Of a DNA stretch of 48,951 bases, positions 35,801 to 44,800 are shown in pieces. This DNA is from Elusimicrobiota bacterium (GTDB lineage Bacteria; Elusimicrobiota; Elusimicrobia; UBA1565): positions 1 through 48,951 of the forward strand of contig JBDRPD010000081.1 of NCBI GenBank assembly GCA_043827405.1. The letters run 5' to 3'. The position numbers were made by a program. The first letter of the stretch is position 1, and every line of letters starts with the position of its first letter.

Positions 35801-38800
35801 CGGCGCGAGCTGGAGCGCTCGGGCAACGCCGTCGCCGGGCTGCTGCGCGGCGCGGGTCTCGAGCATGTCCGTCTGCTGCGTATTCCGGGCGCGCCGCCCT
35901 ACGTTTACGGCGATTGGCTGCACGCTCCCGGCAAGCCGACGGTTCTCCTGTACGCGCATCACGATGTGCAGCCGCCGGGCCGGCGCGGCCGGTGGAAGAG
36001 TCCGCCGTTTCAGGCGGCGCGGCGCGGCGGCCGGCTCTACGGCCGGGGCGCCGCGGACGACAAAGCCGGCGTCGTGATGCATGCCGCCTCCATCGCGGCT
36101 TATCTGCGCACTTCCGGCCGCCTGCCGGTAAACGTCAAGGTTCTCATCGAGGGGGAGGAGGAGACGGGCTCGGAGCATCTTGCGAGCTTTCTCAGGAAGT
36201 ACACCCGCCTGGTCCGCGCCGACGTCGTGGTCATCGCGGATACCGACAATTACGACACCGGGGTGCCCAGCATCACCACCAGCCTGCGCGGCTTGGTCGC
36301 CAACGAAGTGACCGTCGAGTCCGGCCGCAAGCCCCTGCACTCCGGCATGTGGGGCGGTGGGTTCCCGGATCCGGTGATCGCGCTCGGCCGGATTATCGCT
36401 TCGCTGACCGACCGGCAGGGCCGGATCGCGATTCCCGGCATCCGCAGCGGCAGCCGTCCCATGACGGCCCTCGAGCGCCGCCACGTGGACTCGCTGCGCT
36501 ACGGCGACGCCGACTACCGGCGGCAGACGGGAATGCTTCCCGGCGTCAAAGTCGTCGGCGGCCGGAGCTCCGCGCTGGTTAAGATGTGGCGCGAGCCGTC
36601 GGTATCGGTCAACGCGATCCAGGCGGGATCGCGCGAGGCCCTATCGAACATTATCAACGAGAAAGCCTGGTGCCATGTCGGCATCCGCATTGTCCCCGGC
36701 ATGGATCCGGTTCGGACCGGACGTCTGCTGCGCCGGCACCTTAAGCGGAACGCTCCCTGGGGTGTGAAGGTCGCGTTCGGCCCGCTGACCATCGCTCCCG
36801 CCTGGTCGGTCGATCCGGAGGATCCAGCCTTCGCCGCCGCCCGGCGGGCGCTGGCCAAGGGCTACCGGCGCGAAGCGGTGTTCAAGGGCTGCGGCGGCTC
36901 CATCGGCTTTGTCGGTCCGCTGGGCCGGGCTCTCGGCGGCGCGCCGGCGCTGCTGATCGGCGTCGAAGACCCGTATTCGAACGCCCACTCCGAGAATGAA
37001 AGCCTGCACCTGGGCGATTTCGAGAAATCCGTGCGCAGCGCCGTGCACTTGTACGACGAGCTGGCACGGAGCTAAGGGAGAGCCATGAATAAAATAGCGG
37101 TTTTGCTGCTGCTGTCGTTCGTCGTGCCCCGCGCGGACGCGCATGAGGTGCGCGCTGACGGAAAGGTCGTCTTTAATCTGCAGCAGCTCGCCGCCGGCGT
37201 CTACGCCGCGGTCAGCCCCGGCCCGCAGATGCCCGCGATCTCCAATACCGCATTTGCCGTTCTCGACGACGGCGTGCTGGTCGTCGATACCCACCGCTCG
37301 CCCGCCGCCGCAAAGACGCTGCTCGACGAGATCAGGAAGGTCACCGACAAGCCGGTGCGCTATCTCGTCATCACGCACTTCCACGGCGATCACATGGGCG
37401 GGATATCGGCCTTTCCCAAGGATATCGAGATCATCGCCCATGACCGCACGCGTGAGCGCCTGGTCCGCACCGGCCCCGACGGGGCTCCCCTGCCGGACCT
37501 GACGGTCTCCGAGAGCATGACGCTGCGCCGGGGCCGGGAGGTGCAGATCCGCTACGCGGGCCGCGGCCATACCGACGGCGACCTGTTCGTATGGCTGCCC
37601 AAGGAGAGCGTGCTGATCGCCGGCGACCTGCTGTTCAATAACTATATCGGCTTTATGCAGGACGCCTATGTCGCCGACTGGGCGCAGACCCTGGGCCGGC
37701 TGATCGACCTGCGGCCCACGGTCGTGGTCCCCGGCCACGGCGAGGTGACCGACGTGCGTTCCCTTAAGCTGTTTCGCGCCTATCTTTGGGACTTCATCAA
37801 CGCGGTCAAGGAGAAGAAGAAAGACGGGCTCTCCGCCGCGCAGACCGCGCATCATTTCAAGCTTCCCCCCTCCTACCAAAGCTGGGGGATGCAGGACGCG
37901 GCGCTGAAGGCCAATGTGATCCGGGTCTACAACGAGCTCGACGGCGACGCCAGGTAGGCGCTATTTCTTCTTCGCGGGGTTGTAGGCCGACTCGCGGCCG
38001 CATTCGGGGCAGCGTACGCGCACCCGCTTGCCGCGCTGGGGGACGCGCAGCTTTTTGCCGCAGCCCGGGCACTTGATGACCGCCGTCTTCCCCTGGTGCG
38101 CGGCCTTACGCTTCGCTTTGCCTCCCCAGCCGACGCCGTAGCCGATCAGGGCGAGCCCCGTGACCACGCCCAGCGTCACCATCGTTTCGTACAAGGTGCG
38201 GGATTTCGGCTGCTCGGGGAGGCGAAACTCCTCGACTTCGGCCGTCTCCGTCGGCGCCGGGAGCGCGGCGGGCGGGCGCTCGCCGCGCAGCTCTTCGCTG
38301 CGCTTGCGCAGCGCGTCCATATCCTCCTTAAGCCGGATCGCCTCGCGCCCGATGGCGGAGCCGGTGCGCATGACCTCGGCGTTGTAGCGCTCGACCGCGC
38401 GCAGGTAGTTCTGCTGCACCTGCGGCGGCGCCGGGCTTTCGCGCAGGGGCGCGACCTGCGAGCCCTCCACCGGGACGCTCTGGTCGAGCGCCGCGGCGGG
38501 AAGCGCGAGCAGAATGCCGAGAACGAGTATTGGGATCATCCAACGGGGATGATAGCAATCCCGGGAGGGCTTGCCGGCGGATTTGCTCCGCCTGCCGAAA
38601 GCACTATAATCTGGACAGGATTATGCGCTACACCGGTCTCGCCGATACCTCGCCCGGAGTTTACCGGAAGCTGGGGCTGATCTCCGGCTTGGAGATTCAT
38701 CAGCAGCTGCTCACCGCGAAGAAGCTCTTCTGCCGCTGCCCCGCCGGCGAGTATTCGCACGACTGGGACGCCGAGATCCTGCGGCATATGCGGCCGACGC

Positions 38801-41800: not shown

Positions 41801-44800
41801 GCATACCACCGACCTGGAAGAGGTCAAGCGCATCATGACCACGCCGATCGCCGGCGAGATCACCGAGCGCGAGCCGCATAACGGCTACCTGGTCCTCCAG
41901 GGCGGCATCCCCGAAGTAGAAGACTTCATCCGCAGCTACAAAAAATGAAGCTCCTGAAGATTGCCGGCGCGCTGGCCGGCGTACTCGTCCTGCTCGCCGC
42001 AGCGCTCCACTTCGCGGGCTTCCGGCTCTTTCGCGATCCGGCGGGCGGTCTCCCTTTACTGGTGCGCAAGGTGAGCTACCGCAACGGCCGACCGGCCGGC
42101 GGGCCCGATGCCGCCGCGAAAGGACCGCTGCAGAAGATCGAAATTCTAACTCCGGATCCGATTATCCTGCGCAACATGGACAAGGATATCCTGCTGGAAA
42201 ACGTCAAGAAGCTCGTCGACACGGCCAACGAGATCCTGGAGACCAGCGGCAAGGACTTCAAGCTGATGCTGACCGTCACCTACCATGCGGACAAGGAGAC
42301 GGACAATATGCTCCAGGTGCAGGAGGATGCCGACATGCCGGTGATTCAGCGGCTCGGCGACGAGATCGACGCGCTCAATAAAGACCTGCGCACCAAGAAG
42401 GAAGATGTCTCCGTGCGCTTTTACTTCGACACCGCATATCGAAAGGGCGCCGCCAAGCCGGCGGGAAAGACGGTGGTCATCGCGCCGCAAGAGGCGCAAG
42501 GTCCCGGCGCGCCGGTGGCCGGTTCGCAAGAGGAAAGGCAGGCCCTGGCTGTCGTCGCCGAACTGGCGCGGCCGCCGGGCAAAGAGCCGCGCCGGTGGAG
42601 CTCCATTGTCTGCAACCCCAGCGTTTGGAAGCGGCTCAAGGCGCTTGACGCCGCGGTCGCGGAGCTGGGAACGCCCAGCACCGCGATGACGGCCTTCGGC
42701 AAGCTGGAGGCCCGGGCTTTCCTAAAGCAGAAAAATGAGCTGGCGCCGCTCTATGCGAGTCCGGGGTTTCAGCGGTTCATGGCTTCCTTCGCCGAGGGTG
42801 CGGCCCGCGCCGCCACGCAGGAAGAGCGCAAAGAGATCTATGCCATGATCCCCTTCGAGATCAAGGGCAAGCCGGTCACGGTGATCGATAAGGACGGCGC
42901 TCTCCTGTTTATCAGCTTCGCACAGGAGCTGCTGTGGCTCGACGTGATCAGCGACTATCGGCAGCCTGCTTAAGCGCTGCGCCAAGTTCTTCTAGTACAT
43001 CAATACCAGAGCCATTGCGAGCCCTTGGTGTCGGTATGGGTGCAGTTGACGAAAATCCGGCCCCAGAGGTCCGTGCTCGGTTGGTTGTCGTATATCCACT
43101 CGCCGCCGTCGTTCACGTCGGCGCCAGTCGCCCCGTAAGCGACGGCGTTCGTATTGGGATGGTAGTTCGGCGTCTTAACCGTCGGAAACTGGTCCAGGTA
43201 GTCCCCGTTGGTTGTGAGGGCGGACGGATCGTTCGGGTACAGCCCCTCCTGGTCGCCGTAGTAGATGCTGAGGGCGCTGCGTAAAGTGCCGAGGTTCCCC
43301 TTGGTATTGCCTTCATTCGATTTGCGGATCAGGTCCGCAAACTTCGGGATGGCGATCGCCGCTAGAATTCCGATGATCGCCACCACGATCATGAGTTCGA
43401 TGAGAGTGAAGCCCTTGTTTTTAAGCATATATTTGTTTAACCCCCGCCCGACTACTTCTTCGGCGGCGCCTCAGCCAGCCGGCGCTTGGCGAGAATCGAC
43501 CAGGGAGAGGAAGACAGGATGCCGGCCGCTTTTTTTAAGTAGCTCGCCGCCTGCAGCGCGTTGTTCTCTTTCTGGAATATCCCCGCGAGCTTGAAGAAGG
43601 CTTCGGCCATGACGTTCTTCTTGTCGTTCTCGTCGTGCTTTTCGCTGCTCCACCATTTCGCGTCCGACCGGCCGAAGAGGGTTTCCATATGCAGCAAATC
43701 CCCTTTGGCCAGCGATTCCCGCTTCAGGAACCTGGGCACGTGCAGGCTGTTGTTGGCCCGGATATTTCTTATCACCACGCTGTTGGAGGAGCGCTTGACC
43801 GCGGCGTCGATGAGCCTAAACCCCTTCTTCGCCCAGCGCAGCTTCTTGATGGGATTGATCGAGTCGCGTGCGACCAAAGTGCGGGCGCTGCCTGTCCAGG
43901 CGTCAAGCTCGGCGTCAGCGGGCGATTGCTCGCGCAGCTTGGAAAGCTGCTTGAAGGCCTTGTGCGCGGCGCCTTTGACGCGGTGCTTGTAGGCCAGATG
44001 ATGATAATGGATGCCGAGCTCTTTTTGCGCCGCCAGGTCGTCGGGGCGGCGCTTCACCCAATCTTCCTTGCGGCGGATTTGCTCTTGGCGCTGCTCGACG
44101 GTCTCGTAGGGTTCCTCTTCCGGCAGCGGCTGCGTATCTCCGGGAGTGACGGCTTTGCGCGGCCCCGTTCCGACGCCGGGCGGCGGGCCGCCGCCGCAGG
44201 CGACCGCTCCGGCGGTCCCGGCGTACAGCAATGCCAAGCTCAGCGCAAAGAGGCCGCTGCAAAGCGTTTTATCTTTCATGGAAAGATATTAGCGCAGCGT
44301 ACGGGGAAATGCAAATTTTCGCATGAGCTGCTAGCGGATCGACGCGAAGATATCGGCCGACTTATGCGGCCGCGCCGCTTCCTCGTCGTCCAGGATTTTG
44401 AAGACGACCACCCAGTGGTCGTTGGGCGGGGCGAAAGCCTCGAAGACTTTCTCCGTGTACTGCATCCAGAACGCCGCGTAGTTCTCGCGCCCCCGGGGCG
44501 TGAAGTGAAACTCCGTCTTGAGCCGCGTCATCTCGGCGGCGTTGAGCATAAAGTGCGTGATTCCTTCAGCCCGCAGCTTTTGCCGCAGGTCCGCCGGGTC
44601 CGTGCTCGAGTTGAACAGGTATTCGAGGACCGGGGTGTCAAAGACCGTGCTGCTGATATAGTCCCGCTCGAGGTAGAGCCCGCGCGAATCGCCGATCAGC
44701 ACCACCCTGGAGCCCGGCGGCGTTTTTTCATTGAGGTATTTGATGCCGGCATAGGGAGGATTGGGGTAGCCTCCCCAGTAGCTGTGGTGCAGGTAGTCGT

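What a model noticed while it worked through the whole genome (the two positions that open the first line are those of the whole stretch)
38623..41948. Archaeal GatDE amidotransferase in a bacterium with GlnRS and GatCAB
The genome carries an intact gatE-gatD operon, the Glu-tRNA(Gln) amidotransferase described as an archaeal signature protein, although it also has GlnRS, AsnRS and GatCAB and both its tRNA-Gln start with bacterial U1-A72 rather than the A1-U72 that archaeal GatDE reads. The pair belongs to a bacterial clade spread over many phyla, implying changed specificity or another role.
Evidence so far: GatE 38% and GatD 49-50% identical to archaeal enzymes over full length; GlnRS, GluRS, AspRS, AsnRS, GatB present; tRNA-Gln sequences. 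Asparaginase-type and Mg-ligand motifs present. GC like neighbours. GTDB scan: 80 best loci from Elusimicrobiota, Fermentibacteria, Krumholzibacteriota, Aminicenantes, Gemmatimonadota, Myxococcota, Clostridium isolates and others; 73 of 80 have gatD beside gatE. GatD_N in 3002 bacterial genomes. PMC2330236 calls GatDE an archaeal signature recognising A1-U72; searches 15, 55, 146 list no report of bacterial GatDE.
(Added by a program. Inside this text positions count along the whole contig: contig position 1 is position 1 of the stretch shown here. "Call 12" and the like, gene names such as g00115 and contig names such as C1 are that model's own, and its searches are not shown. The text may have been shortened before it was handed on; [...] marks where a part breaks off. 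The agent that wrote the report below was given it as the finding of a first reader that could run no searches.)

Follow-up and report, generated by a model that had tools for sequence, protein, structure and literature searches.

The report
Bacterial GatDE linked to glutamine synthetase
This bacterium carries an intact copy of an enzyme pair that reviews call archaea-only; it belongs to a widespread separate branch that has changed its tRNA-reading residues and repeatedly sits beside glutamine synthetase, so it probably serves glutamine supply rather than the textbook job.

Summary
Confirmed. gatE (38623-40563) and gatD (40560-41948) are intact, pass NCBIfam cut-offs and keep all catalytic residues. 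The genome also has GlnRS, AsnRS, GatCAB and two U1-A72 tRNA(Gln). The pair belongs to a distinct 'bacterial-type' GatDE clade (split from canonical archaeal GatE at support 100 in three trees; root unresolved) that also holds Thermoplasmata-named proteins. It does not behave like the archaeal enzyme. 68 of 68 tRNA(Gln) genes read from 42 host genomes are U1-A72. 10 of 12 hosts without GlnRS keep GatB. The first-base-pair loop and tail motif are changed. Neighbours are glutamine-themed in 25 of 80 loci (glutamine synthetase 21, glnS 2, tRNA-Gln 2); no asparagine-pathway gene was found beside it. In Clostridiaceae one GS type occurs in 10 of 10 GatE-positive against 2 of 18 GatE-negative genomes. 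Best reading (0.4): an auxiliary Glu-tRNA(Gln) amidotransferase for low-glutamine conditions. Rivals: asparagine synthesis (0.25), tRNA-free amidation (0.2). No activity shown. Databases already name these proteins and this scan noted bacterial GatDE, and the GS link, before on other DNA; my literature searches listed no paper on it.

The parts
38623..40563 (+). gatE, bacterial-type Glu-tRNA amidotransferase kinase/amidase subunit, 646 aa
38698..39207 (+). GatE Mg-binding catalytic residues H26, E168, E195 (= M. thermautotrophicus His15, Glu157, Glu184)
   Evidence: alignment; 97-99% conserved in the clade; role from PMC2330236 passages
39289..39378 (+). GatE loop near the tRNA first base pair (residues 223-232) and S252, which replaces a Gln found in 96% of archaeal-type rows
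   Evidence: loop described in PMC2811023 passages, mapped here by alignment
39448..39867 (+). GatE-specific AspRS-like insertion domain (about residues 276-415)
   Evidence: aligned to 1ZQ1/2D6F; weak Foldseek match to E. coli AspRS over 145 columns; Pfam GAD not hit
40363..40560 (+). GatE YqeY-like tail, present but without the archaeal GxxA...MG motif
40560..41948 (+). gatD, asparaginase-type amide-releasing subunit, 462 aa, ATGA-coupled to gatE; nucleophile T108, triad T184-D185-K263; I186 where 62 of 65 relatives have T
41945..42973 (+). 342-aa ORF ATGA-coupled to gatD; no family; probably not part of the system
   Evidence: no such conserved neighbour family among the 80 loci
7401..8705 (+). 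asnS (AsnRS), context only, 30 kb from gatE

Best explanation
A second GatDE subfamily that serves glutamine supply as an auxiliary route. Shown from sequence: GatD can release ammonia from an amide, GatE can phosphorylate and amidate a side-chain carboxylate, the tRNA-binding domains are still there, and the first-base-pair loop is altered. Inferred: it amidates Glu-tRNA(Gln) bearing U1-A72, using asparagine (or glutamine) as donor, when free glutamine is too low for GlnRS or GatCAB; it is therefore grouped with glutamine synthetase, glnS and tRNA(Gln) and is kept beside, not instead of, the normal routes.
For: All catalytic residues kept. Full-length helical and tail domains kept, model like tRNA-bound 2D6F. 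Glutamine-themed neighbours in 25 of 80 loci: GS 21, glnS 2, tRNA-Gln 2; no asnS, aspS, aspS2, gatA or asnB-like gene in those 80 loci. Adjacent GS types are only 26-51% identical and differ in position, also on Thermoplasmata-related contigs. Clostridiaceae: a 476-aa GS ortholog in 10 of 10 GatE-positive and 2 of 18 GatE-negative genomes; that GS and GatE both group with the same Calditrichales genome. The M. thermautotrophicus enzyme uses Asn and Gln about equally (PMC2330236 passage). AsnRS in 77 of 80 hosts. This genome's GluRS has Lys, not Arg, at T. thermophilus position 358.
Against: It needs a non-discriminating GluRS; 23 of 30 GluRS rows from hosts have Arg at position 358, although so do two GlnRS-less clostridia, and the site is phylum-specific (PMC3927822 passage). 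10 of 12 GlnRS-less hosts keep GatB against 23 of 68 with GlnRS, so GatDE does not replace GatCAB. Helical and tail domains are less conserved than in archaeal-type rows (19.5/19.2% against 25.4/28.6%). [quoted passage not shown] No GS beside the pair in this window, and two of the nearest GatDE-bearing genomes show no type I GS hit above 170 bits. AsnRS is also in 28 of 38 relatives without GatE.
Confidence: 0.4

Rival explanations
1. It makes asparagine: GS supplies Gln, GatD releases its amide, GatE amidates Asp-tRNA(Asn) (also U1-A72 in bacteria) and so fills the place of AsnB or GatCAB.
For: GS beside it makes most sense as donor supply for a different product. AsnA in 11 of 80 and the AsnB equivalog in 3 of 80 hosts; 41 of 80 lack GatB, AsnA and the AsnB equivalog, 19 of these also any AsnB-like hit at E<=1e-40. 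Five GatB-less hosts, one a complete chromosome, carry an 'aspartate--tRNA(Asn) ligase' over cut-off (4 of the 7 proteins scanned there plus G100's). The archaeal tail motif said to exclude Asp-tRNA(Asn) (PMC2811023 passage) is missing in 108 of 108 rows.
Against: No asparagine-pathway neighbour in 80 loci. 18 of 21 GS-adjacent hosts have GatB. All 8 Clostridiaceae hosts have AsnA, two also AsnB. The insertion domain said to block ND-AspRS binding is kept. The stand-alone AspRS2 proteins lack the KAPGG loop seen in the gatCAB-linked copy (its meaning is recalled, not from a paper read). Most hosts are MAGs of unstated completeness; AsnRS-paralog asparagine synthetases were not searched in them; no background frequency for AspRS2.
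Confidence: 0.25
2. It has left tRNA: an ATP-dependent amidotransferase for free Glu or Asp (for example Asn + Glu to Asp + Gln) or another small or protein-bound carboxylate, working with GS in amide-nitrogen traffic.
For: Explains at once why it never replaces GatCAB, needs no archaeal tRNA or non-discriminating GluRS, and tracks GS. The catalytic cradle is more conserved than in archaeal-type rows (60.6 against 50.9%) while tRNA-body domains are less so; 49 positions are conserved in at least 85% of the clade but under 40% of archaeal-type rows; GatD is 62-86% identical across phyla where nearly full length.
Against: Helical and tail domains are never dropped in full-length rows. Archaeal GatDE is glutaminase-inactive without Glu-tRNA(Gln) (PMC2330236 passage). 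tRNA(Gln) lies next to gatE in 2 loci. I know of no GatB/GatE-fold enzyme acting on free amino acids (recalled).
Confidence: 0.2
3. Canonical, sole Glu-tRNA(Gln) amidotransferase as in archaea, acting on an A1-U72 tRNA.
For: Passes the GatE and GatD equivalog cut-offs.
Against: 0 of 68 tRNA(Gln) genes are A1-U72; no archaeal-type GluRS hit appeared in 80 hosts in a search where the archaeal controls ring; GlnRS or GatB is found in 78 of 80 hosts.
Confidence: 0.05
4. Contamination, recent import or decaying relic.
For: Patchy: GatE in 3 of 41 genomes of the order and 5 of 118 Clostridiaceae. One unusual change in this GatD (T to I after the catalytic Asp).
Against: GC3 like neighbours; nearest relatives are Elusimicrobiota MAG copies in a supported group; present in isolate genomes and complete chromosomes; strong conservation of catalytic parts; a close relative has V at the same GatD site.
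Confidence: 0.04

Closest known systems
Archaeal GatDE, Glu-tRNA(Gln) amidotransferase (M. thermautotrophicus PDB 2D6F; P. abyssi PDB 1ZQ1)
   Same: Both subunits, domain order, insertion domain, Mg ligands, asparaginase-type nucleophile and triad, overall fold.
   Different: Host has GlnRS, GatCAB and only U1-A72 tRNA(Gln); first-base-pair loop, the Gln at Mt position 240 and the tail motif are changed; separate clade; linked to glutamine synthetase.
Bacterial GatCAB (S. aureus 3IP4 and others)
   Same: Paralogous GatB cradle; meets the same U1-A72 tRNAs; the clade shares 17 consensus sites with GatB that archaeal-type GatE lacks, against 7 the other way.
   Different: Amide-releasing subunit is asparaginase-type GatD, not amidase GatA; has the GatE insertion; GatB models are under cut-off; the host has its own GatCAB elsewhere.
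Redundant GatCAB plus non-discriminating AspRS in Bdellovibrio bacteriovorus (PMC4206432, passages read)
   Same: An amidotransferase kept despite GlnRS and AsnRS, serving amino-acid supply; this genome's AspRS shares the RRDHGG motif with PDB Asp/Asn ligases, which can explain its GatCAB.
   Different: That case concerns GatCAB and asparagine; it does not explain GatDE.
Heimdallarchaeota GatE (P0162 cluster)
   Same: Nearest archaeal-type row; shares the RKQYLDGSIP segment.
   Different: Keeps archaeal loop, the Gln at Mt position 240 and the tail motif; lies outside the clade.

Membership tests
GatE (NF003107, TIGR00134) | Score over curated cut-off, full length | tested here: met
   514.5 > 456; 449.8 > 319.55
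GatE (NF003107, TIGR00134) | Mg ligands His15, Glu157, Glu184 | tested here: met
   H26, E168, E195
GatE (NF003107, TIGR00134) | AspRS-like insertion domain absent from GatB | tested here: met
   aligned through the insertion to 1ZQ1/2D6F; model
GatD (TIGR02153, NF003217) | Cut-off, GatD_N domain, Thr nucleophile and Thr-Asp-Lys triad | tested here: met
   T to I directly after the Asp is unusual
Canonical archaeal GatDE system | Occurs only in archaea | tested here: not met
   80 of 80 best GTDB loci carry bacterial titles
Canonical archaeal GatDE system | Host tRNA(Gln) with A1-U72 | tested here: not met
   2 of 2 in this genome and 68 of 68 distinct genes from 42 hosts are U1-A72
Canonical archaeal GatDE system | Conserved basic loop at the first base pair and tail GXXAXGX motif | tested here: not met
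   R227 to T, T231 to A, I232 to A, Q252 to S; pattern G..A...[LIVM]MG in 0 of 108 clade rows against 33 of 77 archaeal-type rows; the strict GxxAxG pattern is itself weak, 6 of 108 against 16 of 77
Canonical archaeal GatDE system | Only route to Gln-tRNA(Gln), with archaeal non-discriminating GluRS | tested here: not met
   GlnRS over cut-off in 66 of 80, partial in 2; GatB in 10 of the other 12
Canonical archaeal GatDE system | Host GluRS charges tRNA(Gln) | tested here: inconclusive
   position-358 residue not diagnostic
Canonical archaeal GatDE system | Glu-tRNA(Gln) amidotransferase activity; alpha2beta2 complex | not testable with these tools
   needs an assay; no complex prediction was run

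The most novel reading that the evidence does not exclude
Bacterial-type GatDE is an ancient sister lineage of archaeal GatDE that has left translation quality control and become a new amide-nitrogen enzyme working with glutamine synthetase (amide transfer between asparagine and glutamine, on a different tRNA or on free amino acids), spread by transfer among anaerobic bacteria and Thermoplasmata. It would remove GatDE as an archaeal signature and add an unrecognised route of Gln/Asn synthesis.
Probability: 0.25. Interest if true: 0.85.

Novelty: new variant of a known kind. Interest (0 to 1): 0.62.

Why it matters
Reviews up to 2022 state that GatDE exists only in archaea (PMC8762117, PMC9499178, PMC2811023; passages read) and build the LUCA account of amide amino-acid coding on that. 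A large, strongly conserved second clade in many bacterial phyla makes two open questions testable: how an amidotransferase changes its first-base-pair reading, and whether GatDE was lost from or regained by bacteria. Cultured non-pathogen hosts exist among the hits, so genetics is possible. If the enzyme moves amide nitrogen, predicted Asn/Gln auxotrophies of many sediment and groundwater anaerobes would need revising.

Tried and rejected
T-box search: 0 Rfam hits at gathering score in 6 of the 8 Clostridiaceae loci. Promoter/terminator scan of 38300-43200: at shuffle level. RNA evidence: no RNA holder listed; no reads laid. Plasmids: one broken haloarchaeal gatE only. AsnRS co-occurrence as a pointer: weak, 28 of 38 GatE-negative relatives have it. 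GDE as replacement for GS: rejected, GS family in 77 of 80 hosts. GluRS position 358 as a discrimination marker: uninformative. Rooting: the 'careful' IQ-TREE search did not finish; AU tests on 7 fixed topologies rejected none under LG and only two within-archaea roots, marginally (p 0.04), under C20. An odd U1-A72 tRNA-Asp(GUC) as a private substrate: not found full length in 5 related genomes, 3 of them GatDE-positive. Sheppard and Soll 2008 (PMC2366055) is not held and Oshikane 2006 was not read: both are known to me only through citing passages. No supplements were read. Literature searches for a report of bacterial GatDE listed none; searches for AspRS signature residues gave nothing usable. 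No GatD tree and no complex prediction were made.
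Full report
1. Observation. The two ORFs are intact and ATGA-coupled. They pass NCBI's GatE and GatD equivalog cut-offs and fail all GatB models. Their best solved relatives are the archaeal GatDE subunits, and a confident model (mean pLDDT 92.9) matches 1ZQ1 and 2D6F first. The genome (98% complete, 0.5% contamination) has GlnRS, bacterial GluRS, AsnRS, AspRS and GatB over cut-off, GatA and a GatC-like ORF. Both tRNA(Gln) start U1-A72. Codon-position GC is like neighbours.

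2. Catalytic anatomy. The three Mg ligands named in PMC2330236 (passages) map to H26, E168, E195 and are 97-99% conserved in the clade. GatD keeps TGGTIAS (65 of 65 relatives of at least 400 aa), the HGTD Thr-Asp and the Lys of RKMHSS. This copy has Ile after the Asp, where 62 of 65 have Thr; one Elusimicrobiota copy has Val. The GatE insertion, helical and tail domains are present.

3. Distribution. A GTDB scan confirmed 145 relatives and kept the best 80, all with bacterial titles from about 18 named phyla. gatD follows in 74 of 80. GatD is 62-86% identical to ours where nearly full length, GatE 45-65%. The pair is patchy: 3 of 41 genomes in the host's order, 5 of 118 scored Clostridiaceae (3 more not scored). 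NCBI and JGI already name many of these proteins GatE. The nearest copies are from Elusimicrobiota MAGs, so the host is probably of that phylum (inference).

4. Phylogeny. From 80 loci (79 used; 1 short one and the broken haloarchaeal copy dropped), 150 cluster representatives (119 used, 31 dropped by length) and 7 GatB, FastTree puts all bacterial rows in one clade of 116, support 100, with a Heimdallarchaeota cluster as sister at 91. A 54-row LG+C20 quick tree puts the 26 archaeal-type rows on one side, SH-aLRT 100; a 61-row ingroup tree gives 99. Only 5 of these 26 have an archaeal name; the rest are labelled by position, and the sample is biased to those nearest the query. The root is open: between the two types p-AU 0.40 (LG) and 0.34 (C20); clade plus Heimdall 0.66 and 0.62; inside the bacterial type 0.14 and 0.06. 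The clade shares 17 consensus sites with GatB that archaeal rows lack, against 7 the other way, which fits an old lineage but proves nothing. Two Thermoplasmata-named proteins, one on a 5.2-Mb contig, fall inside the clade; a 'Bacteroidetes' label on a 2.6-kb contig in the same subgroup shows that labels can be wrong.

5. It is not doing the archaeal job as archaea do. A tRNA(Gln) pattern matched in 75 of 80 hosts. I read 70 matched places (30 given by the tool, 40 chosen by me) plus 2 loci: 70 tRNA(Gln) calls, 68 distinct genes, 42 genomes, all U1-A72; 5 places were not tRNA(Gln). GlnRS is over cut-off in 66 of 80 and partial in 2; GatB in 33 of 80. Of 12 hosts without GlnRS, 10 keep GatB, among them four Clostridium-type isolates that also have AsnRS and AsnA; the two exceptions are fragmented bins. 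In archaea GatCAB goes when AsnRS is present (PMC2330236); here it stays, so GatDE does not replace it. The loop that PMC2811023 (passages and outline) places at the first base pair is altered (R227 T, T231 A, I232 A), a Gln found in 96% of archaeal-type rows is S/P/A, and the tail motif is gone. The cradle is more conserved and the tRNA-body domains less conserved than in archaeal-type rows. Host completeness is not given for these 80 genomes, so absences are soft, and kin are not independent.

6. Neighbours point to glutamine. Clustering ORFs of the 80 loci gave one cross-phylum neighbour: type I glutamine synthetase (TIGR00653), in 21 loci, directly upstream and co-oriented in 19, directly after gatD in 2. 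17 of the 19 come from one related group, so the count overstates independence. But the arrangements differ: upstream GSI-beta type; downstream GS in an Aminicenantes bin; a divergent GS-like gene downstream in a Gemmatimonadota bin and upstream on a metagenome contig; and gatD, gatE, glnA on contigs 75-77% identical to the Thermoplasmata protein. These GS types are 26-51% identical. The upstream GS aligns full length with solved GS and keeps the active-site motifs. A rough chance figure is 0.1 adjacent loci in 80. glnS lies within 3 kb in 2 loci and tRNA(Gln) within about 1 kb in 2. No asnS, aspS, aspS2, gatA or asnB-like gene was found in the 80 loci. In Clostridiaceae an unlinked 476-aa GS is present in 10 of 10 GatE-positive genomes (3 placed by tree, 2 by direct search, 5 by score and length) and 2 of 18 GatE-negative ones searched; both genes group with the same Calditrichales genome. 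Against: this window has no GS neighbour, and two close GatDE hosts show no type I GS hit.

7. Mechanism. Shown: intact amide-releasing and kinase/amidation sites, altered tRNA-reading elements, redundancy with the normal routes, GS linkage. Inferred: everything about substrate. I favour an auxiliary Glu-tRNA(Gln) amidotransferase fed by Asn when free Gln is scarce (0.4), because the neighbourhood is glutamine-themed and the tRNA-binding domains persist. Its weak point is the need for a non-discriminating GluRS, which I could not settle. Asparagine synthesis (0.25) is supported by missing AsnA/AsnB/GatB in 41 of 80 hosts and by AspRS2-family genes in five GatB-less hosts, and opposed by GatB in 18 of 21 GS-adjacent hosts and AsnA in all 8 Clostridiaceae. 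tRNA-free amidation (0.2) fits the distribution best but has no precedent known to me.

8. Known versus new. By family models these are GatE and GatD. As a system it fails four defining features of archaeal GatDE, so I file it as a new variant. Papers read as passages: PMC2330236, PMC2811023, PMC9499178, PMC2943598, PMC4206432, PMC3927822, PMC8762117, PMC7373986, PMC8007984; those that state a range call GatDE archaeal. Five searches listed no report of bacterial GatDE; most subscription papers and all supplements were out of view. Earlier notes of this scan report bacterial GatDE, its tRNA puzzle and the GS link in other genomes; I had found the GS link before reading those on GS.

Noticed in passing
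G000 whole genome: No tRNA-Asn gene found by ARAGORN or two patterns, although AsnRS is present; most likely unassembled.
   Followed up: partly
G000:C24:15576-15652 (-): Odd tRNA-Asp(GUC) with U1-A72, G73 and A33 in the anticodon loop, beside an island-like region about 4.5 kb from aspS; no full-length match in 5 related genomes.
   Followed up: partly
G000:C50:168194-168266 (-): Second, degenerate-looking tRNA-Cys(GCA).
   Followed up: no
G000:C108:55509-59950: gatC-like ORF is separated from gatA-gatB by a roughly 400-aa ORF.
   Followed up: no
window 37085-37957 (+): Signal-peptide-like metallo-beta-lactamase-fold protein; under the cut-off of every beta-lactamase model listed.
   Followed up: partly
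window 43000-43428 (-): Type IV pilin-like gene; a paralog with nearly the same N-terminal helix lies at G000:C24:17250-17711.
   Followed up: no
L262 and L264 (clostridial genomes G113, G114): Stand-alone archaeal-type aspS2 next to genes that look like cyanophycinase and cyanophycin synthetase (names recalled, not scanned).
   Followed up: no
L110:2902-4505: Haloarchaeal megaplasmid gatE in two pieces and unannotated in the record.
   Followed up: no
L062 and L065: gatD appears split or shortened in these bins; possibly assembly errors.
   Followed up: no
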